Shown here: positions 1 through 43,099 of the stretch, piece by piece
How the letters are laid out: each line of letters begins with the position of its first letter
Numbering within the stretch: position 1 is the first letter of the stretch
From: Escherichia phage vB_EcoM_DE15
Sequence record: NC_079184.1
Direction: 5' to 3' (one strand)
DNA: 53,998 bases
Notes under the pieces: model-generated
Seen by the model: only the letters and a program-made list of their open reading frames with translations
Databases searched by the model: none
Told to the model about the DNA's origin: nothing
Position numbers and translations under genes: made by a program

Positions 1-92
1 CGATTATATGCGAGAAGAGATTCGATGCGTTAGCGTCGTTTCTCTTTGAGCTAGAATAAGACAAGTAAATTAAATATTTATTTATTCCCAAT

Positions 93-390
93 ATTGCTAC
101 AATATTAAGAGTAATATTAGGAATGCGTAAAGTTAAAACCAAATGGTACATGGTCGGTCAACTGTATCTCCTTCGGAGAAGGTACTTGGACCAATCTTCG
201 TTCACGGTCGGTCAGCTGTATCTCGCCGAAATTTGTTCGAACAGAAGTCCGACTATGAAATAATTTTTTTATAATTTTTTTTTTATTTTTCAATATTGCT
301 ACAGAATTAATGAGACTAGAATTCGTAACAAAGCTACGAGACTCGAATTGTTTCAATATTAACGAGACTCAATCTGTGACAATATTATAA
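93..390. repeat. Repeat-rich non-coding leader: direct repeats GGTCGGTCA(A/G)CTGTATCTC at 152-170 and 206-224; three GAGACT(A/C)(G/A)AAT copies at 312, 338, 364 with 26-nt spacing; poly-A/T tract 250-290; palindromic CAATATTG octamers
   Basis: Read directly from sequence; no + strand ORF in 1-651. Confidence 0.6.
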
Positions 391-567
391 TTTTATTTTT
401 GGGACGGCGAGGAGGGGAAGCCCAACGTCCTATCGGACTTAAAATACGGTCCCTACCCCAACTTTTTCCTACAGCCTATCGGCTTTCAAACAACACCAAG
501 TTAGGCGCTTCGCTTATGGGTCAAGGTCAAAGTCTCCGTGCTGTTGTAACAATGGCACAGGTTTGTG

Positions 568-588
568 ATATTAGTTGGACGTGAATTG
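568..588 (+). promoter_or_regulatory. Phage promoter-like motif (ATTAGTTGG core) upstream of the RNA polymerase gene
   Basis: Copy of the recurring 20-nt motif ACATTAGTTGGAT(A/T)TGAA; here ATATTAGTTGGACGTGAATTG. Confidence 0.4.
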
Positions 589-651
589 TGTAATGGCTAC
601 GCTATTATAATCCGTTTCAGTTAAATCATACACAATCTTGGAGACTTACAA

Positions 652-2592
652 ATGACTACTATCACCACTCAAACTATCAAATCCGTTGTTCCTGCTATCA
701 CTGCTCTGGTATACCGTGCCAAAGAGAAACAGAACTATATGCAGCCTCAGACTTGTGCTATTGCTGCCTTAGCCATCTTCAAGATGATGACGTCTTTCAC
801 TCGTGATGACGTTGTCCCTGCCATCGCGATGGTTGAACTGGCTTCTGCTTCTATTGCTGATGCCAACCGTTATAACAACGATTTGAAAGCAATGCACTAT
901 GTTGACCCAGCTATCAACCTCATTGGTCTGGCTAAGCACTTTGGCTTCATCACCATGAACGAAGACAAGTCATTCCAACAGACTGACACATGGGTTGAAC
1001 TGGTTACAACCAAAGACACCGCAGTGCCATTCACTGAGCGTGTTACATCTGAATCTCGTCGCAAGCCTTTCGTTAAAGGTGGCAAAGTTAAGCCATCCAA
1101 AACTCTGAAAGCTGCAATCGAATTCCTGCAAGATACTGAGTACCATGTGGAGACTGAGATGGTTCGCATCATCCAGTCCATGCTTGAGCAACGTACTTAT
1201 GGTGGCTTGCAGATGCCAGAAGCAATCCAGACTGAACTTCATGTTTGGAACAATGCTGTAGCAATGATGAATCAGGACACACTGTATTCTGACTACTTTG
1301 CTGACAACCGTGGTCGCCTGTATCATGTAGCATGTGCTGGTCCTAACCCACAATCTTCTGACTTTGCTCGTTGCTTGTATTCTCACAATGTTGAGAACAT
1401 CGTTAAGAAGTTTAACGAAGATGGTTCTACTACCATTGCATACAATATGTTCATGGCAGAACTGGAAGACATTTCCGGTGGTGAATGGTGCACTGCCAAG
1501 CGTTTGACTTATGTTGCTCAGAATCCAGCTGGTTCACTTGCTCGCATGATGAACATGCCTAAAGCTGAACGTCCTTCCAAGCCATTCACTTATGTTCGTC
1601 TGGCTCTGGATTGGTTCAAGTTTGAGACTACAGGTGAATGCGATTCTCGTGTAGGCTTTGGCTTAGATGCTAAATGTTCTGGTACTCAATATCTGGCATT
1701 CATTGCTGGCAATATGGAAATGGCTCGTGCAACAGGTCTGGTTGATTCTGAGACTAAAGCATCTGACCCATACCAGTTGAGTCTTCGTGAACTGTTGAAG
1801 CTGTTGGACAAGTCTTCAATGAAACCATCTCCTGAAATCATGGATGAATTCTTGAATCCGAAAGCTGGTCGTAAGTTTATCAAAACTCCGTACATGGCTA
1901 TTCAATATGGTGGTGGTAAAGCTGCACTAACTGGTTCATCTGACTTCATCAGCTACATGACGGAAGCTCTCCAGATTCCTATGGAGAAAGCTGAGGCATT
2001 TGCTGAACTGTGTGTAGAAGCAATCCATAACGCATTGGGTGCTAAGATTAACATGTTCATTGAGAAAGCTGCTGAGGCTGCATACAACCGTTGTGTTGAA
2101 CTCAACAAAGAGTACATCACATATCGTCACACTGATGGTCAGGTTGTAATGAAGCCTTGCTTCCCATCTCGTGAAATCTGTGAGGCATTCAGCATTCGTG
2201 TTGACAGCCAAACTCGTGTTATCTTTGGTCAGATTCAGGAGAATAAGCCTTGGACCATTCGTGAATCCAACCCAACTAAAGAAGAATTCAAGCGTACTTT
2301 CGTTGTTAACTACATTCAAGGTATTGACGCATTGGTTGCTCGTACTGTTGCAGTTAAAGCTAAAGAAGCTGGTCTTCGTGGTTTCACTTCAATCCACGAT
2401 TGTTTCCGTTGCTGTTTGGCAGATGCTCCACGTATGATGGAAGTTATTCGTGCAGCATATGTTGAAATCTTTGTAACCAACAATCAATTCGAGAATCTGT
2501 CTAAGCAACTTGGTGGCATTCAGATGTATCATGAGAACATCGTAACTGAAGAACTCCTGATGTCTGAACACGCTTACTACTTCTGTCAATAA
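652..2592 (+). CDS. Single-subunit (T7-type) DNA-dependent RNA polymerase, compact 646-aa form
   Basis: Motif A GLDAKCSGTQY (T7 DGSCSGIQH), motif B RKFIKTPYMAIQYGG (T7 RxxxKxxxxxxYG), motif C IHDCF (T7 HDSFG); only ~130 aa precede the palm region. Confidence 0.8.
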   Translation: MTTITTQTIKSVVPAITALVYRAKEKQNYMQPQTCAIAALAIFKMMTSFTRDDVVPAIAMVELASASIADANRYNNDLKAMHYVDPAINLIGLAKHFGFITMNEDKSFQQTDTWVELVTTKDTAVPFTERVTSESRRKPFVKGGKVKPSKTLKAAIEFLQDTEYHVETEMVRIIQSMLEQRTYGGLQMPEAIQTELHVWNNAVAMMNQDTLYSDYFADNRGRLYHVACAGPNPQSSDFARCLYSHNVENIVKKFNEDGSTTIAYNMFMAELEDISGGEWCTAKRLTYVAQNPAGSLARMMNMPKAERPSKPFTYVRLALDWFKFETTGECDSRVGFGLDAKCSGTQYLAFIAGNMEMARATGLVDSETKASDPYQLSLRELLKLLDKSSMKPSPEIMDEFLNPKAGRKFIKTPYMAIQYGGGKAALTGSSDFISYMTEALQIPMEKAEAFAELCVEAIHNALGAKINMFIEKAAEAAYNRCVELNKEYITYRHTDGQVVMKPCFPSREICEAFSIRVDSQTRVIFGQIQENKPWTIRESNPTKEEFKRTFVVNYIQGIDALVARTVAVKAKEAGLRGFTSIHDCFRCCLADAPRMMEVIRAAYVEIFVTNNQFENLSKQLGGIQMYHENIVTEELLMSEHAYYFCQ

Positions 2593-2600
2593 GAGAAACA

Positions 2601-2630
2601 GGGCTGGCAATAGCTGGCCCTATTCTTGTT
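2601..2630 (+). terminator. Hairpin (8-bp stem incl. 2 GU, AATA loop) followed by T-rich run after the RNAP gene
   Basis: GGGCTGGC-AATA-GCTGGCCC then TATTCTTGTT. Confidence 0.4.
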
Positions 2631-2693
2631 CATCAACAACTAAATCCCAATATTCAAGCAATATTGCTGCATGTAATATTGCTCCGATATTCG

Positions 2694-2714
2694 ACATTAG
2701 TTGGATATGAAGTA
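2694..2714 (+). promoter_or_regulatory. Phage promoter-like motif ACATTAGTTGGATATGAAG
   Basis: Member of recurring 20-nt motif family. Confidence 0.4.
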
Positions 2715-3670
2715 AAAGAATACGGAGAAATATTCCGCATGTCATGTTGAATCATTCTAGAAACATTCAGCATGTCAGCTTTGAGTTACAGCGTTGTAAT
2801 GATGTGGCAATCATTGAACTCCCTGGGAAGGCCACCTATAGTTCCAGCAACCATGACTTAGAGTAGGAATATCTATCCGAAACTTGGACTTCATTGTAGT
2901 TTGGTGTGCTTCATCGTGAGAAAGGTTGTGATAACTTTCGTAAGCAGGTGTTGAACTAACAACAGAACATCGTGTTAGCCATCTTGATTAAGTTACAAGA
3001 AAGTCAACAAATCAGCATGTCTATTAGTAACAATCTTGTTCCTTCTCCTATTATCAAGGCCCACCCACAAGCCGGGAGATAACTTTGACAAGACTGGAAC
3101 TTTTGGACATGCTTCTTTCTTTCTACAAGAATTCGAAAGAAGAGAAGAGTCGGAGCAAAGCCGCGAAACTAATCCCGTAGCCCGCCCCCGATTTTGAGCA
3201 ACAAATATTGTGACAATTGCGTCGCAGTATGGCATGTAAATATTGCTACAAATTGGCATGTTGGAATGTGGCAGAATTGTTAGAGGACTAATCACCTCGA
3301 AGATACAATCGTCTACCAATCTGGCATGTTAATTTTGTAACAGTATTTGTGCCAATTTCGCATGTAATAGTTGTATCAGTATTGACCCAATATTCTTGCA
3401 ACCCGCATGAATACTGGCTTCCAGCCAAGCGAAGGCTTTATCATCGCATGTAATATTGTGACAATATTGGGATAAAACCCTTTATTTAAATCATTTAGTT
3501 TATTAATTAAATGGTCGGTTTTCTGTACATAGGTATTCAACTGTTTGTGCCAAATACAAACAAGTTGGCTGCTTCTACAGAACTCCAGTGCTACAAATGT
3601 TCGTGCCAATCTGCTGCAATTTATCTCATTTGGCGGGGTAATATTGTATTAGGTTGGTACGTCATTATTT

Positions 3671-3692
3671 CGATTAGTTGCATGTGAATAAG
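3671..3692 (+). promoter_or_regulatory. Phage promoter-like motif variant GATTAGTTGCATGTGAATAAG
   Basis: Member of recurring motif family, one core substitution. Confidence 0.3.
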
Positions 3693-3964
3693 ACCAAATC
3701 TCTGTAAATTCTGTGACAGATTTTAGAGAGATTATGTCTCCAAGCTAATCATTGTAGTTCTTCGGCACTTAATGTGTCACATATATAGCCTGTGAAAAAC
3801 GTGTGGTTTATTGCTGGATTGCAACGCGCCCACCAGACTAGGGAGTCCGTGATGGCGGCACACAGGAATACTATATAACTCCCTACAACTTTAAGGTGGA
3901 TTGAGGTAAGACAAGACCTCCACAATCGTTCTGTAGGGAGTTTTCTTTAACTTGGGAGAATAAA

Positions 3965-4213
3965 ATGGATACTGTGACTAAAGCTGCTTACTTTAAAGAC
4001 TTGTCAGATGGTCAAATATTTTCTATTCGCTCTGTAAAGTGGATTAAAGTAAATGAATCAGACAAGTACAATGCTGTAAAGTTCTTTGATTCAAGCAAGG
4101 CATGTACTTTTAGTGACAATATTGTTGTAAATATTGAAGTCGAATTAGAGCCAGATGATTCAAATGATGAAATCATTCTGCGTAAAACTGTTGGATACAC
4201 TAAAGGATTCTGA
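3965..4213 (+). CDS. Hypothetical early protein (82 aa)
   Basis: ORF with GGGAG RBS upstream of ATG. Confidence 0.5.
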   Translation: MDTVTKAAYFKDLSDGQIFSIRSVKWIKVNESDKYNAVKFFDSSKACTFSDNIVVNIEVELEPDDSNDEIILRKTVGYTKGF

Positions 4214-7865: not shown

Positions 7866-8306
7866 ATGCCAATCGTATTCGAAGGTAAGGCCAACGTATT
7901 TACTGTGGATGCACAAACTGTAACTTGTACTGTGAATGTTGTTGGTGTAATGGGTGCTGGTGTTGCAAAAGAGTACAAACGTCGCTACCCAGAGGCATTT
8001 AAGAACTACAGAACTGCGTGTAATCGTGGGTTCAAAACTGGACAATTGTTGCTGCAACGTCTTAATGATGGGCGTCTTGGACTATGTTTCCCAACAAAGC
8101 AACATTGGCAAAATCCTTCTCAACTTGAATGGATTGAGCAAGGTCTTATTAAGCTGGTGGAAACTTACAAGCGGTGTGGAATCACTTCACTTGCAATAAC
8201 CCCACTTGGTTGTGCAAATGGGCAGTTGGATTATGCTACTCAAGTTCGTCCACTTATGCTTAAATATTTAAATCAGTTGGATATTCCAGTATTCATCTGC
8301 AAATGA
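7866..8306 (+). CDS. Macro-domain protein (ADP-ribose binding/hydrolase-like)
   Basis: NVVGVMGAGVAKEY resembles the macro N-x(5)-G-G-G-V loop; SLAITPLGCANGQLD resembles the second glycine loop. Confidence 0.55.
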   Translation: MPIVFEGKANVFTVDAQTVTCTVNVVGVMGAGVAKEYKRRYPEAFKNYRTACNRGFKTGQLLLQRLNDGRLGLCFPTKQHWQNPSQLEWIEQGLIKLVETYKRCGITSLAITPLGCANGQLDYATQVRPLMLKYLNQLDIPVFICK

Positions 8307-8342: not shown

Positions 8343-8363
8343 CAATTAGTTGGATTTGAAGAG
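8343..8363 (+). promoter_or_regulatory. Phage promoter-like motif CAATTAGTTGGATTTGAAGAG
   Basis: Motif family member. Confidence 0.45.
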
Positions 8364-11484: not shown

Positions 11485-12042
11485 ATGGAGAATCCGATGG
11501 AAAACCAAATTACTCAAGCAGTAGAACAACTTAAGTCCTGGCGTAGAGACGAAACCTTATTGGTTCGTTTCTACACAGGCGAAACTAATTCTGAATTTGT
11601 AGATGCGTGGATTGATGGCCTGTCTTGGCGTCACTATGATTTCGACATGCGGGAGTATTTGCATGAAGAATACGGCATTGAATACCCAGAAGCCGGTGCA
11701 TATGACGTAATTGAATCAAATGAAGAGGATGTTACCGAAGTTTGCTTTGCCAATGGACTGTTCAGCATTCGCAGATACGACAAATTCAACGAACTGCTTG
11801 TTGATACTGATTTGGATGTAATTCTTGCAGCATTCCGCAGTGGTGAGATTGATATTTTCACTGTGGATGATTTGAACGACATGTTTATTGCACGTTGCGA
11901 CTCAATTACAGAATATTTGAAGCAAAGTGAGGCACTGGATATTCCAGACCGACTTGCACCATATATTGATTGGGATGCAATCACCAGAGATTATGGAAGT
12001 GACTACATTTTCTCTGAGGGAATATTATTCTTAAATGCGTGA
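11485..12042 (+). CDS. Highly acidic protein, possible ArdA-like anti-restriction DNA mimic
   Basis: VRFYTGETNSEFVDAWIDGLSW resembles the ArdA N-terminal pattern as I recall it; strongly D/E-rich throughout. Confidence 0.35.
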   Translation: MENPMENQITQAVEQLKSWRRDETLLVRFYTGETNSEFVDAWIDGLSWRHYDFDMREYLHEEYGIEYPEAGAYDVIESNEEDVTEVCFANGLFSIRRYDKFNELLVDTDLDVILAAFRSGEIDIFTVDDLNDMFIARCDSITEYLKQSEALDIPDRLAPYIDWDAITRDYGSDYIFSEGILFLNA

Positions 12043-12343: not shown

Positions 12344-12364
12344 ACATTAGTGGGATTTGATTCT
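12344..12364 (+). promoter_or_regulatory. Phage promoter-like motif (first of three in tandem)
   Basis: ACATTAGTGGGATTTGATTC. Confidence 0.4.
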
Positions 12365-12494
12365 GACCACTTAGGGAAGAAAGGCATTATACACTTATCG
12401 CCAAATGGGTGTCAAGCACTTTCTTCATTTATTTTAATTTATTCTTATTATTCTTTTTGTTTGGAATATTGGAATAATTCTGAAACATTAATTG

Positions 12495-12516
12495 GAATTG
12501 AATTAGTGTAATTCTG
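12495..12516 (+). promoter_or_regulatory. Phage promoter-like motif (second of three)
   Basis: ACATTAATTGGAATTGAATTAG, preceded by a 70-nt AT-rich tract. Confidence 0.4.
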
Positions 12517-12621
12517 TCTGTACTCTTTTCCACTAGCAATTGTAGAGGAAGTCCACTGCAATAAGCGCAGCCTCAAACAACCAAGTCTGGACAACTTGGG
12601 AAGAGAGTACAGCACAAAATC

Positions 12622-12642
12622 ACATTAGTTTGAATTGAAACA
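12622..12642 (+). promoter_or_regulatory. Phage promoter-like motif (third of three)
   Basis: ACATTAGTTTGAATTGAAAC. Confidence 0.4.
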
Positions 12643-13588: not shown

Positions 13589-13875
13589 ACTTACAAGACA
13601 AATCTAAAGAAGAGTTGATTGAGATTATCCAGAAAGAGCACGAACTCGCTGGCATCACAATTAACTTTGAACTCCAGGCAATGCAAGCTGTTGCTTTGGG
13701 TCATGGTCTAATGGCTACACTCATTCATGCCAAGAATGTGTTAGGCGTTGACAACGAAAAATACCAAATTCTGGAGAAAGCTGCGCAAGAGCGGATTTCG
13801 CAGTGCTTGGTGACATTAGTTGATTTGGGAATCGACGCAGAAACTGCGAACAAACGTATCCTACAAGGCCACTAA
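13549..13875 (+). CDS. Hypothetical protein (108 aa)
   Basis: ORF; overlaps upstream gene by 40 nt, start uncertain. Confidence 0.35.
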   Translation: MDNKPTDLRSSILNLQDKSKEELIEIIQKEHELAGITINFELQAMQAVALGHGLMATLIHAKNVLGVDNEKYQILEKAAQERISQCLVTLVDLGIDAETANKRILQGH

Positions 13876-13876
13876 A

Positions 13877-14551
13877 ATGTCTTATCATGATGATGACAAA
13901 GAGATTGCACTATCAACGTGTAAGCAATGGCTCAATGATAATGATGCCGTCTATCTTGCCAAGGAAGATGTTATCATTATGTGGGTCCATTTTAATCCAG
14001 AATCGAAGCGCGGTGAGTGGCAACGCTACAAGATGAAAGAGGCTTGTCGCATAATTAAAGCCACACGCGCTGGCTTCTCTGCTATGAAGTATATTAAGCC
14101 AGAGATGCTGATGCTTGCTGCACAGGAAGAAGAACGTGCATATAAGCAAGCTGTTAAATCTCGTTCAACTGTTCCTCCAGAGTTCTTTAATTTGGAGCGC
14201 GCTGGACACTTCAACAATTTAGAAATGTTGACACTGTGCCTGTTGCAAGAATTAGTTGGAAGAGGACAAAACATTGAAGCTGTTTGTCTTGGGGAACTCA
14301 TGAAAGAGTTGTTCTCGGCAAAGGGCTTTGCTGTGCCAAATCGAACTTTACGCTGGAAATTGTTGCGAGCAGTCGCGCAAGAAGCTGGTGTAGTTGTTCG
14401 TGACAGAACAAACCGACTCACTGTAACTGGAGTTGGGCGTTTTGTAGCAATCCAGATTGAGGGTTATGACGAATCAATCATCACTGAACTCACTGTCGCT
14501 GAGACAAAGGATTTAGTAAATAAAACATTAGAACGATTCAATAGATATTGA
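13877..14551 (+). CDS. Hypothetical protein (224 aa; ORF track gives 13820)
   Basis: ATG 13877 immediately after upstream stop. Confidence 0.45.
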   Translation: MSYHDDDKEIALSTCKQWLNDNDAVYLAKEDVIIMWVHFNPESKRGEWQRYKMKEACRIIKATRAGFSAMKYIKPEMLMLAAQEEERAYKQAVKSRSTVPPEFFNLERAGHFNNLEMLTLCLLQELVGRGQNIEAVCLGELMKELFSAKGFAVPNRTLRWKLLRAVAQEAGVVVRDRTNRLTVTGVGRFVAIQIEGYDESIITELTVAETKDLVNKTLERFNRY

Positions 14552-14580: not shown

Positions 14581-14601
14581 ACATTAGTTGGATGTGGAAA
14601 G
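14581..14601 (+). promoter_or_regulatory. Phage promoter-like motif ACATTAGTTGGATGTGGAAAG
   Basis: Motif family member. Confidence 0.45.
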
Positions 14602-15014: not shown

Positions 15015-16104
15015 GTTGCCGATGGCAAACTTGAGAGACTAAGCTAAATCGATCTGGCATGCACTGGAAGATTTCCGGTGCTGCCTTGAACCCATTCTGA
15101 AAGGAAGAGTGGGCTTCAATGAGCATTCTTGTGATTAGAGTTGGGAGGTAGGCCGATGCCCAAGCTCATGGCCCAGACAAGAGTGTTCATTGAAGTTACT
15201 TCAATATGGATTGTCGCCAAGTTGTGGAAGGACGTGCACACAGATTTAACGAAGAAAAGTAACAGCCTGAGAACTGTGAAAATTTCCCGTTATGTCGTGG
15301 GGAAGTGCACCATAGCTTGGGTTCTTCACGTAGATATTACTCAGATATTTGCGGCTCGCTGAATGTGAGCATCCATATTGAAGTAGTTTTCTGAGTCTTA
15401 CGACGGGCCTAAACTGCCTGAAGTTATTGCGACTGTTTTATTCATTTAAAATAAATGCAAATGATTCTGAAATGCGAGTTGCGGCTTAATTAAATTTAAG
15501 TCCTCTCCGTGGTCTTCCAATCCCACGTAACCAAATTTGGCGCATTGTGGCTTCGAGATGTGATTAATAAATCGGAGCAATAATTAATTTGTATTCTGCG
15601 ATGCAATGCAGGCTTAAGTCCCTCAGTGCGCGTGGGGATGTGACAGAGTACAAACTTAATTATGCAGTTGGATATTTCTAGAGGACGGACGAGCACACTG
15701 GAATGTCTTCAATTGGTTTAGTGTGAGAAGCTATGCCAATATGAAACGTAACTCCTTGGGGAAGTGCTCCTCTGGATTTCCCTCCACACAGGAATCTCAA
15801 GCCTGTGGCAGCGACTTCGAAGCTGCACTGCGTAACCTAAATTCACCCTAAAGTGAGTTGCCCTGAGTATGGAAATAAACTGCTCATAACCGATGGTATC
15901 TACAAAGGTAGATTAAATCAGGTTGCCTGTTGGTACTTGGGTTCAACACCTGCTTGCACTCGCAAAGTAGTGCCTCGTACCTGAGATGAAGTGAGTCGGG
16001 ACCATCAATCCCACGTTATGTCAAAACACAGTAGGCGGCTCACGGATTCTACAAGCCTCGCAGTTCGGGAAAACCTGCGTTATCAAAACCCCCCTCTTTT
16101 ATTT

Positions 16105-16196
16105 GGACGAGTAGCTCAGAAGGTTTGCATTGTGCTCAGTCAGGTAGAGCAATCTGTTCGACAGATGTGTCGTTGGTTCGAATCCAACCTCGTCCA
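16105..16196 (+). tRNA. tRNA-like gene (anticodon loop GUUCGAC, anticodon UCG, Arg) carrying a 20-nt insertion in the D-loop; possibly pseudo-tRNA
   Basis: Acceptor GGACGAG/CTCGTCC, TA at 8-9, D-stem GCTC/GAGC, T-arm GTTGG-TTCGAAT-CCAAC, discriminator A; D-loop 29 nt with duplicated GCTCAG. Confidence 0.4.
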
Positions 16197-16228
16197 CCCA
16201 CTTTAATAATAGCAATACTGGAGTCCTT

Positions 16229-28123: not shown

Positions 28124-28309
28124 ATGCGCACAATACAATGTCCTAACTGCCATTATGAAATTGCAGAAGATGATTTCATAACGCAACAATGTCCTATCTG
28201 TGATTCATATATGCCACTAAACCGCCTGTATTTAAAGGCCGATTCTGGTTTAGGCAGCATCATTCGCATCAATCCCGTGCAAACTCAGCCATTAGTGGAT
28301 TGTGATTAA
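28124..28309 (+). CDS. Small zinc-ribbon protein
   Basis: CPNCHYEI...CPICDSYMP. Confidence 0.4.
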   Translation: MRTIQCPNCHYEIAEDDFITQQCPICDSYMPLNRLYLKADSGLGSIIRINPVQTQPLVDCD

Positions 28310-31878: not shown

Positions 31879-32911
31879 CGACGAAGATACCGTGAATGAA
31901 GTAGTTTTGTTGAACGACAAGGCTACTTTAACGACCCGTCGTTTACGTGACTCTGGCGAAATGATTGCAGAATGCACCATCGCTCGTACTGGCATTATGC
32001 TGTACAAGGCGAAAGAACTTGGTGAAATTGCAAAACATCTGGACCCAGAATCTATTTGCCGTGTTCGTACCAAGCCGGAAGTATTATTTGACGAAGCAAC
32101 CATCGAAGGCTGTCGTTCAATCCCGGTTACTATCGGCCATCCGAAAAATGATGTTAACATCAAGAACAACAAAGAACTCCAGAAAGGGTTCATCGAAGGG
32201 CGTCCAGTTGCAGACGGTTCTTTCTTAGCTGCATCAATCGTTTTGAATGACGAGCAAGCTATTCGATTAGTTGATTCTGGTGTTGACCAAATCTCCTTGG
32301 GCCATAATGCTGAACTGGCTGTATCAGAAGATGATGAAGCCGACTTCGATAAAGTTCGCATTATCCCTAACCATGCTGCAATTGTTGTTCGTGGTCGTGC
32401 TCAGACTACTCGCATTGGTGACTCTGGTGAAGAGATTGCCATTGTTGATAAGGCAACCTTTGACGTTGTTGAAGCAGAGCGTGATGCAGCGCTTGACAAG
32501 ATTAGTGTCCTTGAGCAGAAACTTGCTGATGCAGAAACTGCACGACTATCCGATGAAGCCATTCAGGCTGAGGTAGACAAACGTGTAATTGCTCGTACAG
32601 CACTGCTTGTTGATGTGGCACGTCTTGGCGACGAGTTCTCCAACCTCGATTTCTCCGGCAAAACCGATGCAGAAATTAAGTTGGCTGTAGTTAATAAATT
32701 GCATGACAAGGATTTCAGCGATAAGAGCGAAGACTATATCTCCGCCCGTTTCGATGCGGCTCTTGAAGATTGCGATTCCATTACTTTGGGAGATGCCCTG
32801 AATCAGTCTATGCAATTCTCTGCTAAGAAAGATTCAGAAGCTCGTAAACCTAAAGTTTCTATTTCCGAAGAAGCTAACAAACGTCGTTTAGAACGCTTCA
32901 ACTCTTTATAA
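31847..32911 (+). CDS. Putative prohead protease / scaffolding protein (GTG start; ORF track 31670)
   Basis: Coiled-coil acidic C-terminal half; position between portal and capsid. Confidence 0.45.
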   Translation: MKQNQNLVQLNDEDTVNEVVLLNDKATLTTRRLRDSGEMIAECTIARTGIMLYKAKELGEIAKHLDPESICRVRTKPEVLFDEATIEGCRSIPVTIGHPKNDVNIKNNKELQKGFIEGRPVADGSFLAASIVLNDEQAIRLVDSGVDQISLGHNAELAVSEDDEADFDKVRIIPNHAAIVVRGRAQTTRIGDSGEEIAIVDKATFDVVEAERDAALDKISVLEQKLADAETARLSDEAIQAEVDKRVIARTALLVDVARLGDEFSNLDFSGKTDAEIKLAVVNKLHDKDFSDKSEDYISARFDAALEDCDSITLGDALNQSMQFSAKKDSEARKPKVSISEEANKRRLERFNSL

Positions 32912-32920
32912 GGTAAGACA

Positions 32921-33394
32921 ATGCCAAAGCAAGATTGGTCTATTAATACTGGTGAAGCATATGCAGGTGAACAATATGGCCTGGCTACCACCAACTCCCA
33001 GCGCCTGACCTACGTTGCCGAAGAAGAAATGGCAAACTTTGGTCTGGCTGTTGTTCAGGGCACGGCCTCTAATCAGGTTAAACCTGGTATTGAAGCAGAC
33101 GGCACTGTTCTGGGCATTACCATGCGCCAGATTAACATCGAATCAGCCACTCGTCCTGGTGACGGTACTGTTGCTATTAAAGTTGGCTGGCCTCTGGGCG
33201 TTATGCTGTCTGGCCCAATCATGGTCAAACTGAAAACCGCAATCACCGATAAAGACATTGGCGTATCTGACACTGGTCAATTTGGTGGCGTTGGTGCTGG
33301 CTATACTAAAGCAACCAACCTGACTGCACTTCGTTATCCGGCTGCTGCTGGTGATGTTGTTCCGGTAATGATTAACGTAGTCCCAAAGCCGTAA
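32921..33394 (+). CDS. Head structural / decoration-like protein (157 aa), highly expressed
   Basis: Host-like codon usage; slippery CCCAAAG 6 codons before stop. Confidence 0.5.
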   Translation: MPKQDWSINTGEAYAGEQYGLATTNSQRLTYVAEEEMANFGLAVVQGTASNQVKPGIEADGTVLGITMRQINIESATRPGDGTVAIKVGWPLGVMLSGPIMVKLKTAITDKDIGVSDTGQFGGVGAGYTKATNLTALRYPAAAGDVVPVMINVVPKP

Positions 33395-33969
33395 CGCCAC
33401 CTCCAGCTCCTGCGGTGTCTGCTGTAGCAGGGACTGTAACTGCGGACGCATCTGCATCTGATGCCACTGTAACTGTAGACAAACTGTTTACGTTTGAGAA
33501 CTCTACAGCAACAGATTACAACTTCGCCGTTACTCCTGCTGTAGCTGGTGTTTCTGTGGCGGCAAACGGCACTGTGACTGTACTAAGTGCAACGACTACA
33601 GCCACTTCTGCGACAATCAAGGCAACGAATAAAACAGAGCCTGGTGTAACTGCATCTAAAGTGATTACGATTAAGCCTAAACCTCCTGCACCTACGGTGT
33701 CTGCTGTAGCTGGAGTTGTAACGGCTGATGCGTCTTCTACTGATGCCACTGTAACTGTAGACAAACTGTTCAAGTTTGGTAACTCTGCAGCAACAGACTA
33801 CACCTACGCTATTACGCCTCCTGTGATTGGCGTTTCTGTGGCTGCAAACGGTACTGTAACCGTCTTGAATGAGACAACTACCGATACCTCTGCCACGGTT
33901 AAGGCAACAAACAAAACAACCTCCAGCGTGACTGCAACTAAAGAAATTGCTATTACGCCGAAGTCTTAA
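33382..33969 (+). CDS. -1 frameshift extension of the previous gene adding two tandem ~95-aa Ig-like repeats
   Basis: No start codon or RBS; -1 frame opens at 33376; repeats share SAVAG..TADAS..DATVTVDKLF..GVSVAANGTVTVL..KATNKT. Confidence 0.5.
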   Translation, partial: PKAVTPPPAPAVSAVAGTVTADASASDATVTVDKLFTFENSTATDYNFAVTPAVAGVSVAANGTVTVLSATTTATSATIKATNKTEPGVTASKVITIKPKPPAPTVSAVAGVVTADASSTDATVTVDKLFKFGNSAATDYTYAITPPVIGVSVAANGTVTVLNETTTDTSATVKATNKTTSSVTATKEIAITPKS

Positions 33970-43078: not shown

Positions 43079-43099
43079 ACATTAGTTGAATATGTATTA
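43079..43099 (+). promoter_or_regulatory. Phage promoter-like motif ACATTAGTTGAATATGTATT upstream of baseplate genes
   Basis: Motif family member. Confidence 0.45.

What the first reader, a model, noticed from the sequence alone, without database searches (positions are those of the whole stretch)
652..2592. Unusually compact single-subunit RNA polymerase
All three catalytic palm motifs of T7-type RNAPs are present, but the protein is 646 aa with only ~130 residues ahead of the palm and a short motif B-to-C interval. Most of the T7 N-terminal promoter-binding domain appears to be absent, which suggests a distinct promoter-recognition mode.
Basis: partly seen in the sequence, partly recalled or inferred. 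Interest (0 to 1): 0.6.

Follow-up and report, generated by a model that had tools for sequence, protein, structure and literature searches.

The report
Compact T7-type phage RNA polymerase
This is the already-annotated RNA polymerase gene of an E. coli Chaseviridae phage; it really is about a quarter smaller than T7's enzyme because the front part is trimmed, and the genome carries a conserved 18-bp motif that is probably its promoter.

Summary
The ORF at 652..2592 (+) is real and complete at 646 aa. It is 99.7% identical to the gene annotated 'RNA polymerase' in Escherichia phages Bp7, ST32 and flopper (Chaseviridae, Carltongylesvirus). All T7-family catalytic motifs are present, and the AlphaFold model (pLDDT 91.5) matches T7 and mitochondrial RNAPs.

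It is 237 aa shorter than T7 RNAP, and 203 of those residues are missing ahead of the DxxGR motif. Profile alignment shows a trimmed T7 N-terminal domain, not a foreign one. The hairpin, the RRP and LQxTxW/Y blocks and a short thumb are kept. T7 residues 1-214, which include the AT-rich recognition loop, have no detectable counterpart.

No separate N-terminal subunit or N4-type cofactor was found.

Compactness is a clade trait: 93 full-length cluster representatives have a median length of 705 aa.

An 18-bp motif, ACATTAGTTGGATnTGAA, occurs 14 times, always on the coding strand and mostly between genes. It is conserved at orthologous sites in Pectobacterium and Proteus relatives, so it is probably the promoter.

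The gene is known, its architecture is under-described, and interest is moderate.

The parts
652..2592 (+). RNA polymerase CDS, 646 aa plus stop (T7-family single-subunit RNAP; orthologue of ST32 gp1 and phiEcoM-GJ1 gp01)
638..645 (+). Ribosome-binding site TTGGAGAC, 6 nt before the ATG; conserved as TTGGAG in PM1 and Proteus PA_03
   Evidence: ST32 paper Table 2
622..624 (+). In-frame TAA 10 codons upstream of the ATG; rules out an N-terminal extension
568..585 (+). Candidate phage-RNAP promoter ATATTAGTTGGACGTGAA, 67 nt before the RNAP ATG; an orthologous site lies about 40 nt before the ATG in PM1 and PA_03
652..1005 (+). N-terminal helical domain, aa 1-118, predicted with winged-helix-like topology. 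Residues 1-88 have no detectable T7 counterpart.
949..981 (+). Beta-hairpin aa 100-110 (ITMNEDKSFQQ), collinear with the T7 intercalating hairpin (T7 226-246, V237) but about 10 residues shorter
1057..1101 (+). Conserved basic loop RRKPFVKGGKVKPSK (aa 136-150; R136, K142 and G143 invariant or near-invariant); aligns with T7 R291-L305
1099..1266 (+). Truncated thumb region aa 150-205. It includes AIEFLQDTEYHVE, which aligns with T7 AINIAQNTAWKIN (319-331). It is about 40 aa shorter than the T7 thumb.
1303..1317 (+). DxxGR motif DNRGR (aa 218-222), equivalent to T7 D421-R425
1654..1689 (+). Motif A GFGLDAKCSGTQ (catalytic D339, equivalent to T7 D537)
1870..1914 (+). Motif B RKFIKTPYMAIQYGG (R407, K411, Y419, G420, equivalent to T7 R627, K631, Y639, G640)
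2149..2271 (+). Specificity-loop equivalent, aa 500-540. Predicted beta-strands at 506-537, net charge +1. Aligns with T7 ~735-770 and carries a ~10-residue insertion.
2389..2409 (+). Motif C SIHDCFR (H582-D583, equivalent to T7 H811-D812)
2569..2589 (+). C-terminal HAYYFCQ, aligned to the T7 C-terminal FAFA 'foot'; the C-terminus is complete
2600..2631 (+). Terminator-like GC hairpin plus T-rich tail, directly after the RNAP stop codon
2694..2711 (+). Candidate phage promoter ACATTAGTTGGATATGAA just downstream of the RNAP gene; orthologous sites in PM1 (2300) and PA_03 (2206)
3671..3688 (+). Candidate phage promoter CGATTAGTTGCATGTGAA
7827..7844 (+). Candidate phage promoter ACATTAGTTGAATGTGAA, 37 nt before the macro-domain gene
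8343..8360 (+). Candidate phage promoter CAATTAGTTGGATTTGAA before the SSB gene; orthologous sites in PM1 (6276) and PA_03 (9428)
12344..12639 (+). Cluster of three candidate promoters (12344-12361, 12485-12502, 12622-12639)
13813..13830 (+). Candidate promoter ACATTAGTTGATTTGGGA (weaker 3' half)
14249..14266 (+). Weak candidate site GAATTAGTTGGAAGAGGA inside an ORF; orthologous sites in PM1 (12998) and PA_03 (14007)
14581..14598 (+). Candidate promoter ACATTAGTTGGATGTGGA; orthologous sites in PM1 (13347) and PA_03 (14346)
28289..28306 (+). Candidate promoter CCATTAGTGGATTGTGAT just before the 681-aa ORF at 28302 (terminase large subunit, by position in PM1)
32264..32281 (+). Weak candidate site CGATTAGTTGATTCTGGT
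43079..43096 (+). Candidate promoter ACATTAGTTGAATATGTA before the baseplate-hub gene, preceded by a GC hairpin; orthologous sites in PM1 (41346) and PA_03 (41277)

Best explanation
The window is a Carltongylesvirus (Chaseviridae) genome. ORF 652..2592 is its complete, functional single-subunit RNA polymerase of the T7 family.

The enzyme keeps a full palm and fingers catalytic core, a specificity-loop hairpin and the C-terminal foot. Its N-terminal region is pared down from about 410 residues in T7 to about 205:
- The first 88 residues are a small helical module with no detectable T7 counterpart.
- Residues 89-205 are a shortened version of T7 215-411. This stretch holds a helix plus a beta-hairpin in register with the intercalating hairpin, the RRP block, the LQxTxW/Y block and a thumb about 40 residues shorter.
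- The part of T7 that carries the AT-rich recognition loop is absent.

Inferred mechanism: host RNAP first transcribes the gene from the left genome end. The phage enzyme then recognises an ~18-bp double-stranded promoter, consensus ACATTAGTTGGATnTGAA. There are 14 copies, all on the coding strand, including one before its own gene and one directly after its terminator. Recognition is mainly through the specificity loop. The short hairpin would open the DNA, and the enzyme would then transcribe the middle and late gene blocks.

Shown here: the gene, its family and fold, its completeness, the domain map, and the statistics and conservation of the motif.

Inferred only: that the motif is the promoter, which protein elements read it, and that no cofactor is needed.

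The confidence of 0.7 refers to the package 'complete compact T7-family RNAP that uses this motif as its promoter'. The identity of the gene alone is above 0.95, and autonomy from cofactors is about 0.5.
For: Identity and family:
- 99.7% aa identity to the annotated RNAP of phages Bp7 and ST32.
- PF00940 at 67.6 bits and PHROG 414 at E = 7e-98.
- AF2 model with pLDDT 91.5 and pTM 0.85.

Catalytic residues are invariant across 34 homologues down to 34% identity and map onto the T7 residues.

Completeness:
- In-frame TAA 10 codons upstream, with stops in all three frames. The same holds in PM1 and PA_03.
- Lengths of 630-670 aa are conserved in homologues.
- The C-terminus aligns to the end of T7.

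Domain map:
- 203 of the 237 missing residues lie before DxxGR.
- N-terminal-only profile alignment places query 89-180 against T7 215-346 (probability 85%, E = 6.5e-6).
- RPOL_N is absent here, while the T7 control hits it.

No partner subunit or cofactor.

Clade-wide compactness: 93 full-length representatives with median 705 aa, 21 of them at or below 660 aa.

Promoter motif:
- The 10-mer with up to 1 mismatch occurs 17 times against 4.07 expected (0 of 100 shuffles reach 17), and 16 of the 17 are on the + strand.
- 14 matrix sites score at least 22 bits, against 12 for the next best, with none on the minus strand.
- It is the top non-coding 8-mer family in a de novo search.
- 11 of the 14 sites lie in the 13.7% of sequence that is non-coding (P = 8e-8).
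- The core is invariant within otherwise diverged intergenic DNA at orthologous positions in PM1 and Proteus PA_03.
- Terminator-then-promoter arrangements occur at 2600/2694 and 43058/43079.
Against: - No biochemical or transcript-mapping data exist for any member of this family in the literature I could search. The ICTV profile states that the promoters are unidentified.
- The matrix scores are partly circular, because the matrix was trained on the same sites.
- Few motif copies lie in the late region (only 28289, 32264 and 43079). Late expression would need long read-through or other promoters.
- The hairpin equivalence is supported by collinearity and register, but it is not significant on its own (E = 0.11 when the alignment is restricted to query 1-132).
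- The closest characterised minimal enzyme, N4 RNAPII, cannot use double-stranded promoters without cofactors. The many small early ORFs of unknown function could include such a factor.
- All structural statements rest on predicted models, not solved structures.
Confidence: 0.7

Rival explanations
1. Cofactor-dependent minimal polymerase, N4 RNAPII style. The 646-aa protein is only the catalytic engine. Promoter recognition or melting would be supplied by one or more separately encoded small early proteins, or by the phage SSB, that bind the ATTAGTTGG motif or locally unwound DNA and recruit the polymerase.
For: - N4 RNAPII (673 aa in total) also has a truncated N-terminal domain and thumb. 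It needs gp1 and gp2, and T7's independence from factors is described as the exception among ssRNAPs.
- The AT-rich recognition loop region is missing.
- The putative recognition helix of the winged-helix-like module (aa 87-96) is not basic and is poorly conserved.
- More than 15 small early ORFs have no assigned function. An SSB gene sits directly behind a motif copy.
Against: - The window has no homologue of N4 gp1, gp2 or gp15.
- The enzyme is a single chain, not a heterodimer.
- The specificity-loop equivalent is present with net charge +1, like T7 (+2 by my count). According to the Drc paper's summary of the N4 RNAPII structure, the N4 loop is acidic and rigid.
- N4 RNAPII promoters are minimal AT-rich -7..+2 elements. 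Here a long, specific, 18-bp motif exists, as in T7-type systems.
Confidence: 0.25
2. The conserved ATTAGTTGG motif is not the promoter of this polymerase. It could instead be a binding site for a phage regulator, a site for modified host RNAP, or an RNA-level signal. The RNAP would then use a different promoter that has not been recognised.
For: - No experimental start sites exist.
- Only 3 of the 14 sites lie in the 26-kb late region.
- A second repeated element, AATATTGYKAC, shows that the genome carries other regulatory repeats.
Against: - The motif is strictly strand-specific and lies just upstream of gene blocks and after terminator-like hairpins.
- No sigma-70 -10 element follows it at a fixed distance (sequences).
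- It is conserved with the RNAP across genera that share 66-71% identical RNAPs, and it is absent from the Aeromonas phage, whose RNAP is only 35% identical.
- A comparable set of eight consensus promoters was hypothesised for the related phage PP101.
Confidence: 0.15
3. The ORF is an N-terminally truncated or mis-started gene. The true product would be longer, or the N-terminal domain would be encoded elsewhere.
For: - Sibling phages Bp10 and Mangalitsa, and cluster representative P0001, are annotated with a 704-aa product.
- Aeromonas relatives encode 844-884 aa, and Shewanella SppYZU05 has 351 + 527 aa ORFs.
Against: - In this window, stops in all three frames precede the ATG.
- The 58-aa extension in Bp10 and Mangalitsa comes from a ~160-174 nt indel carrying its own duplicated RBS. 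It keeps the internal RBS and ATG, has no homologue in the window, and bears no resemblance to T7.
- The Aeromonas extension has no homologue in the window or in T7 and does not hit RPOL_N.
- The ~630-650 aa length is conserved across dozens of homologues down to 35% identity.
Confidence: 0.03

Closest known systems
Annotated RNA polymerases of Chaseviridae (Escherichia phages phiEcoM-GJ1 gp01, ST32 gp1, Bp7, flopper; Erwinia Y2; Pectobacterium PM1 and PP101)
   Same: It is the same gene. Amino-acid identity is 92-99.7% within the genus and 66-77% across Cleopatravirinae. The position is the same: first gene at the left end, inside the ~3.2-kb terminal repeat where that has been mapped.
   Different: Nothing substantive. 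The literature calls the enzyme 'large' and 'very similar to T7' without noting that it is 27% shorter or which parts are missing.
Bacteriophage T7 RNA polymerase (883 aa; PDB 1CEZ, 1QLN, 3E2E)
   Same: The fold and all catalytic motifs (DxxGR, A, B, C), the specificity-loop hairpin, the C-terminal foot, a hairpin in register with the intercalating hairpin, and the LQxTxW block. The likely genome strategy is also the same: an early RNAP gene, unidirectional transcription, repeated promoters of ~18-23 bp, and promoters directly after the RNAP gene.
   Different: It is 237 aa shorter. There is no counterpart of T7 1-114 or of the AT-rich recognition loop (93-101). Pfam RPOL_N gives no hit. The thumb is about 40 aa shorter and the fingers segment between motifs A and B is 22 aa shorter. 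Sequence identity is only ~15-19%.
Bacteriophage N4 RNAPII (gp15 269 aa + gp16 404 aa; PDB 6DT7)
   Different: It is a single polypeptide, not a heterodimer. There is no sequence similarity to gp15 and no gp1 or gp2 homologues in the genome. The genome carries a long sequence-specific motif, not minimal AT-rich promoters. By profile score it is closer to T7 than to N4 gp16.
Xp10/OP1-type siphovirus single-subunit RNAP (OP1 ORF33, 774 aa)
   Same: The nearest relatives outside Chaseviridae among isolated phages (22-24% identity over the polymerase core). They are also shorter than T7.
   Different: About 130 aa longer, with the gene located mid-genome.

Membership tests
T7-like single-subunit DNA-dependent RNA polymerase (Pfam PF00940) | Polymerase-domain HMM match above the curated threshold | tested here: met
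   PF00940 at 67.6 bits against a cut-off of 22, aa 322-621; PHROG 414 at E = 7e-98
T7-like single-subunit DNA-dependent RNA polymerase (Pfam PF00940) | Catalytic motifs DxxGR, A (Asp), B (R..K..YG) and C (HD) | tested here: met
   D218/R220/R222, D339, R407/K411/Y419/G420 and H582/D583 are invariant in 34 homologues and aligned to the T7 residues
T7-like single-subunit DNA-dependent RNA polymerase (Pfam PF00940) | Right-hand fold superimposable on T7 or mitochondrial RNAP | tested here: met
T7-like single-subunit DNA-dependent RNA polymerase (Pfam PF00940) | T7-type N-terminal domain (Pfam RPOL_N, PF14700) | tested here: not met
   No RPOL_N hit even at E <= 10, while the T7 control gives E = 1.2e-34. 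Only the back half is detectable by profile-profile alignment (query 89-180 against T7 215-346, E = 6.5e-6).
T7-like single-subunit DNA-dependent RNA polymerase (Pfam PF00940) | AT-rich recognition loop (T7 93-101) | tested here: not met
   The alignment to T7 starts at T7 115. Query 1-88 has no significant match to T7 1-214. The basic loop at 136-150 aligns with T7 291-305 instead.
T7-like single-subunit DNA-dependent RNA polymerase (Pfam PF00940) | Intercalating beta-hairpin (T7 ~230-245) | tested here: inconclusive
   The predicted hairpin at aa 100-110 is in register with the T7 hairpin in two independent alignments. It is about 10 residues shorter, and the alignment is not significant on its own (E = 0.11).
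T7-like single-subunit DNA-dependent RNA polymerase (Pfam PF00940) | Specificity loop (T7 739-770) | tested here: met
   Predicted beta-strands at 506-537 align to T7 ~735-770, with a ~10-residue insertion and net charge +1. Its function was not tested.
T7-like single-subunit DNA-dependent RNA polymerase (Pfam PF00940) | Promoter-specific DNA-dependent RNA synthesis | not testable with these tools
   Only indirect evidence: a conserved, strand-specific 18-bp motif
N4 RNAPII-type minimal heterodimeric RNAP | Polymerase split into two polypeptides (gp15-like and gp16-like) | tested here: not met
   A single uninterrupted ORF of 646 aa
N4 RNAPII-type minimal heterodimeric RNAP | Homology to both the gp16 and gp15 subunits | tested here: inconclusive
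N4 RNAPII-type minimal heterodimeric RNAP | Genome encodes gp1 and gp2 (Drc-type) cofactors | tested here: not met
   tblastn of N4 gp1 and gp2 against the window gives nothing below E ~ 4. Functional analogues cannot be excluded.
Chaseviridae (Carltongylesvirus) genome | ~52-56 kb genome, unidirectional genes, T7-like RNAP as first gene, near-identity to type members | tested here: met
   The 53,998-bp window has almost all long ORFs on the + strand. RNAP identity to Bp7 and ST32 is 99.5-99.7%. The gene order matches ST32 and Bp10.
Winged-helix (wHTH) DNA-binding domains | Helix-turn-helix followed by a beta-hairpin wing (fold level) | tested here: met
Winged-helix (wHTH) DNA-binding domains | Sequence-family membership, or a basic conserved recognition helix | tested here: not met
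   No Pfam or PDB sequence hit. Helix 87-96 is largely hydrophobic, poorly conserved and preceded by acidic residues in several homologues. The helix plus wing aligns with T7's own helix plus intercalating hairpin, so this is best read as the topology of the trimmed T7 N-terminal domain and not as an acquired wHTH.

The most novel reading that the evidence does not exclude
This ~73-kDa protein, together with a clade of at least 90 sequence clusters with a median length of ~705 aa, could be the smallest natural single-chain RNA polymerase that is promoter-specific on double-stranded DNA without any cofactor. It would read an 18-bp promoter using only a specificity loop plus a miniature winged-helix-like N-terminal module and a short hairpin. 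That would show that the front ~200 residues of T7 RNAP, including the AT-rich recognition loop, are dispensable for autonomous promoter recognition.
Probability: 0.4. Interest if true: 0.55.

Novelty: already known. Interest (0 to 1): 0.35.

Why it matters
The gene is a known taxonomic hallmark of Chaseviridae, so its existence is not news. Three points still have value.

1. The enzyme is 27% smaller than T7 RNAP and smaller than the two-chain N4 RNAPII. The papers I could read call it 'large' or 'very similar to T7'. A defined domain map of what is and is not retained makes it a natural experiment on how much of the T7 N-terminal domain is needed for promoter-specific initiation.
2. The ICTV profile says that Chaseviridae promoters have not been identified. 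The conserved motif ACATTAGTTGGATnTGAA, with its 14 mapped copies, gives a concrete hypothesis that can be tested directly.
3. If the enzyme works alone, a ~650-aa orthogonal RNAP-promoter pair would be useful where coding size matters, such as compact expression circuits and delivery vectors.

Tried and rejected
1. Separate N-terminal subunit. I ran tblastn of T7 residues 1-410, N4 gp15 and the Aeromonas 290-aa N-terminal extension against the window and against PM1 and PA_03, and found nothing. PHROG and Pfam scans of 20 early and middle ORFs found no second RNAP-related ORF.

3. 'The basic loop 136-150 is the AT-rich recognition loop.' The composition is similar (KGGKVKPS against KRGKRPT), but the order along the chain would be reversed. 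The loop aligns instead with T7 291-305. Rejected.

4. Single-sequence hhalign of the N-terminal profile against T7 1-420 or against gp15 found nothing. Only a profile built from 27 T7-like sequences gave signal.

5. Raw genome-wide k-mer counting for motifs was swamped by codon bias. Restricting the count to non-coding sequence worked.

6. The window-derived matrix finds no motif in the Aeromonas (Nefertitivirinae) genome, and de novo 8-mers there gave no clear promoter candidate.

7. An Rfam scan of 1-4200 gave no hits. The sigma-70 consensus scan of 1-4200 found no more sites than in shuffled sequence, so the early host promoters remain unmapped.

8. Papers not held: the phiEcoM-GJ1 genome paper, the Erwinia Y2 paper and the N4 RNAPII structure paper. 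I therefore cannot exclude that one of them comments on the enzyme's size or its promoters. The PP101 promoter consensus appears only in a figure.
Full report
**What is there.** The window has an ATG-initiated ORF at 652..2592 on the + strand, encoding 646 aa (72.8 kDa, pI 6.1). A GGAG-containing ribosome-binding site (TTGGAGAC, 638-645) precedes it. The protein matches Pfam RNA_pol (PF00940) at 67.6 bits against a cut-off of 22 and PHROG 414 'RNA polymerase' at E = 7e-98. A tblastn search of 50,697 phage records shows 99.7% identity to the gene annotated 'RNA polymerase' in Escherichia phage vB_EcoP_Bp7, and 99.1-99.5% identity to those of ST32, SA91KD, SKA49 and flopper. These phages are classified as Chaseviridae, Cleopatravirinae, Carltongylesvirus. 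The window is therefore a genome of that genus, and the gene has been annotated since the family's founding member, phiEcoM-GJ1. The literature treats this RNAP as the family hallmark.

**Check of the observation.** All catalytic motifs are present, invariant in 34 homologues down to 34% identity, and aligned to the T7 residues:
- D218-N-R220-G-R222 corresponds to T7 D421/R423/R425.
- Motif A D339 corresponds to T7 D537.
- Motif B R407/K411/Y419/G420 corresponds to T7 R627/K631/Y639/G640.
- Motif C H582-D583 corresponds to T7 H811-D812.
- The C-terminal YYFCQ aligns to T7's terminal FAFA.

The size bookkeeping against T7 is as follows.

| Segment | Change relative to T7 (aa) |
|---|---|
| Start to DxxGR | -203 |
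| DxxGR to motif A | +5 |
| Motif A to motif B | -22 |
| Motif B to motif C | -9 |
| Motif C to end | -8 |
| Total | -237 |

Two details do not hold. About 205-215 residues precede the palm, not ~130. The B-to-C interval is only marginally short, and the specificity hairpin in it is retained and carries a ~10-residue insertion.

**Is the product really only 646 aa?** In the window an in-frame TAA lies 10 codons upstream of the ATG, and all three frames contain 3-5 stops within 300 nt. The same holds in Pectobacterium phage PM1 and Proteus phage PA_03. Homologues down to about 35% identity are mostly 604-670 aa.

Two sibling phages (Bp10 and Mangalitsa) and cluster representative P0001 are annotated at 704 aa. 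This comes from a ~160-174 nt indel that adds an identical 58-aa acidic peptide in frame. The indel carries a duplicated RBS and keeps the internal RBS and ATG. The peptide has no homologue in this window and no resemblance to T7.

In the other subfamily (Nefertitivirinae) the gene is longer. It is 884 and 844 aa in Aeromonas phages H1 and PVN04, and 351 + 527 aa ORFs in Shewanella SppYZU05. That extension has no homologue in the window or in T7 and does not hit Pfam RPOL_N.

No other ORF in the window hits an RNAP family, N4 gp15, or the N4 cofactors gp1 and gp2.

**What was lost and what was kept.**
- T7 hits Pfam RPOL_N at E = 1e-34. None of the Chaseviridae polymerases do.
- I first read this as a foreign DNA-binding domain replacing T7's promoter-binding domain, and then tested that reading. 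A profile of 93 compact-clade sequences against a profile of 27 T7-like sequences aligns query 9-645 with T7 115-883 (E = 4e-48).
- With the N-terminal parts alone (query 1-195 against T7 1-398), query 89-180 aligns with T7 215-346 at probability 85% and E = 6.5e-6.

In that alignment the correspondences are:

| Query | T7 |
|---|---|
| Helix 87-96 plus hairpin 100-110 | Helix 212-224 plus intercalating hairpin 226-246 |
| VPFT 125-128 | PPKPWT 274-279 |
| Conserved basic loop RRKPFVKGGKVKPSK (136-150) | R291-L305 |
| AIEFLQDTEYHVE (155-167) | AINIAQNTAWKIN (319-331) |
| Thumb, about 40 residues shorter | Thumb |

The winged-helix-like module is therefore best read as the topology of a trimmed T7 N-terminal domain. 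Query residues 1-88 have no significant match to T7 1-214, which contains the AT-rich recognition loop (93-101). On its own the hairpin correspondence is only suggestive (same register, E = 0.11).

The N-terminal region is under selection. N75, K142 and T162 are invariant, and P14, P126, R136 and G143 are nearly so.

**How unusual is it?** An exhaustive profile search of 1.84 billion cluster representatives finds 3,079 ssRNAP-like proteins, 112 of them at E <= 1e-30. The 93 full-length proteins in that strong band have a median length of 705 aa (IQR 666-730), and 21 are 660 aa or shorter. The next band has a median of 808 aa. Compactness is therefore a trait of a sizeable, mostly metagenomic clade, and this protein sits at its short end.

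Among characterised enzymes, N4 RNAPII (269 + 404 = 673 aa) is described as 'one of the smallest members', with truncated N-terminal and thumb domains, and it depends on cofactors gp1 and gp2. The nearest relatives among isolated phages outside Chaseviridae (OP1/Xp10-type) are 774 aa.

In the literature I could search, no paper discusses the small size of the Chaseviridae enzyme. [quoted passage not shown] Searches linking a winged helix, or a truncated N-terminal domain, with T7-like RNAPs returned nothing relevant.

**A probable promoter.** The ICTV profile states that Chaseviridae promoters have not been identified. One paper hypothesised eight consensus promoters for the related phage PP101, but the sequence appears only in a figure.

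In the window, repeat finding turned up a recurring ATTAGTTGGA core. The evidence for it is:
- With up to 1 mismatch it occurs 17 times against 4.07 expected (0 of 100 shuffles reach 17). Sixteen of the 17 are on the + strand.
- An iterated weight matrix separates 14 sites (at least 22 bits) from the next best (12 bits), with none on the minus strand. The consensus is acATTAGTTGGAtnTGAa. These scores are partly circular, because the matrix was trained on the same sites.
- In an independent de novo search, ATTAGTTG/CATTAGTT is the top non-coding 8-mer family.
- Eleven of the 14 sites lie in the 13.7% of sequence that is non-coding on the + strand (P = 8e-8).
- The same core sits at orthologous positions in PM1 (RNAP 71% identical) and Proteus PA_03 (66% identical). 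These positions are upstream of the RNAP gene, just after it, before the SSB gene and before the baseplate-hub gene. There it forms an island of invariance in otherwise unalignable intergenic DNA.
- It is absent from the Aeromonas phage, whose RNAP is only 35% identical and carries the long N-terminus.
- A terminator-like hairpin follows the RNAP stop codon (2600-2621) and precedes the site at 2694. A GC hairpin precedes the site at 43079.
- No sigma-70 -10 element follows the motif at a fixed distance.

I regard this motif as the cognate promoter with roughly 75% confidence.

**Most likely mechanism.** The steps below are inferred unless marked otherwise.
1. Host RNAP transcribes the gene from the left genome end.
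2. The 646-aa enzyme then initiates at the ~18-bp motif, including a copy 67 nt before its own ATG, and drives the unidirectional middle and late gene blocks.
3. Sequence reading is probably by the retained specificity loop.
4. The short hairpin at 100-110 is the candidate DNA-opening element.
5. The contact that T7 makes through its AT-rich loop must be absent or replaced, possibly by the novel 88-residue front module or by the basic loop.

Whether the enzyme is autonomous, like T7, or needs a small phage factor, like N4 RNAPII, cannot be decided here. The long specific motif, the single chain, a specificity loop that is not acidic, and the absence of gp1 and gp2 homologues favour autonomy. 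The N4 precedent and the many early ORFs of unknown function argue for caution.

**Verdict.** The object itself is an already annotated family-hallmark gene, and compact T7-type polymerases have a precedent in N4 RNAPII. What this analysis adds is a domain-level account of the trimming, the clade-wide size distribution, and a concrete promoter hypothesis for a family whose promoters are said to be unknown.

Noticed in passing
window 2593-3964: About 1.35 kb directly after the RNAP gene has no convincing ORF. It is bounded by candidate phage promoters at 2694 and 3671. Comparable ORF-free gaps follow the RNAP gene in PM1, Proteus PA_03, Aeromonas H1 and PVN04, and Shewanella SppYZU05. Rfam gives no hit. 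By analogy with T7, whose primary replication origin and phi1.1A/B promoters lie just after gene 1, this could be an origin or a non-coding RNA region.
   Followed up: partly
window 90-386 and 2660-3468: A second repeated element, AATATTGYKAC, is often adjacent to GCATG(T). It occurs 17 times against 4.6 expected, and 11 of the 17 copies flank the RNAP gene. GCATGTAA is also the top non-coding 8-mer in Proteus PA_03 (10 non-coding copies against 1 coding). It looks like an operator, an iteron or an early-promoter element. Its function is unknown.
   Followed up: partly
L001 5827-6000 (Bp10); L011 211-384 (Mangalitsa); protein P0001: Some phages in the same genus carry a ~160-174 nt indel with a duplicated RBS. 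It fuses an identical 58-aa acidic peptide (MTNEEYRALAADG...) in frame to the RNAP, giving an annotated 704-aa product. It is absent from this window and from ST32.
   Followed up: yes
L007 40276-42930; L008 1544-4078; L009 1562-4273: Nefertitivirinae RNAPs carry an extra N-terminal region of ~200-255 aa with no Pfam hit (884 and 844 aa in the Aeromonas phages). In Shewanella SppYZU05 the gene is annotated as two ORFs (351 + 527 aa), which could be a real split or a frameshift. Residues 13-54 of the Aeromonas H1 extension resemble another early-region sequence in the same phage (L007 45115-45240, 48% identity, E = 2e-4).
   Followed up: partly
window 1 to ~3300 (by homology to L011 1-3234): In Mangalitsa the PhageTerm-predicted direct terminal repeat (1-3234) contains the whole RNAP gene, so packaged genomes would carry two copies. 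The window holds only one copy and shows no self-match between its ends.
   Followed up: partly
window 33399-33962: A tandem duplication of a 282-nt unit (77% identity) lies inside the structural-gene region, across the ORFs at 32921-33394 and 33415-33969.
   Followed up: no
window 16104-16200: A tRNA-Leu (anticodon CAG) gene, 97 nt long, lies in a gap between early and middle genes.
   Followed up: no
window 7866-8306 and 11485-12042: A macro-domain protein (PF01661, E = 1.5e-8) and an ArdA-like anti-restriction protein (PHROG 14321, E = 8e-52) lie among the early genes. The first sits directly behind a candidate phage promoter.
   Followed up: no
proteins P0074, P0079, P0107, P0115: Compact RNAP homologues (604-657 aa, 35-53% identity) sit on large bacterial contigs: Hafnia alvei at 4.8 Mb, Pseudomonas brenneri at 6.3 Mb, and also Lelliottia and P. 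laurylsulfatiphila. This suggests prophage-like or integrated elements that carry this polymerase type.
   Followed up: no
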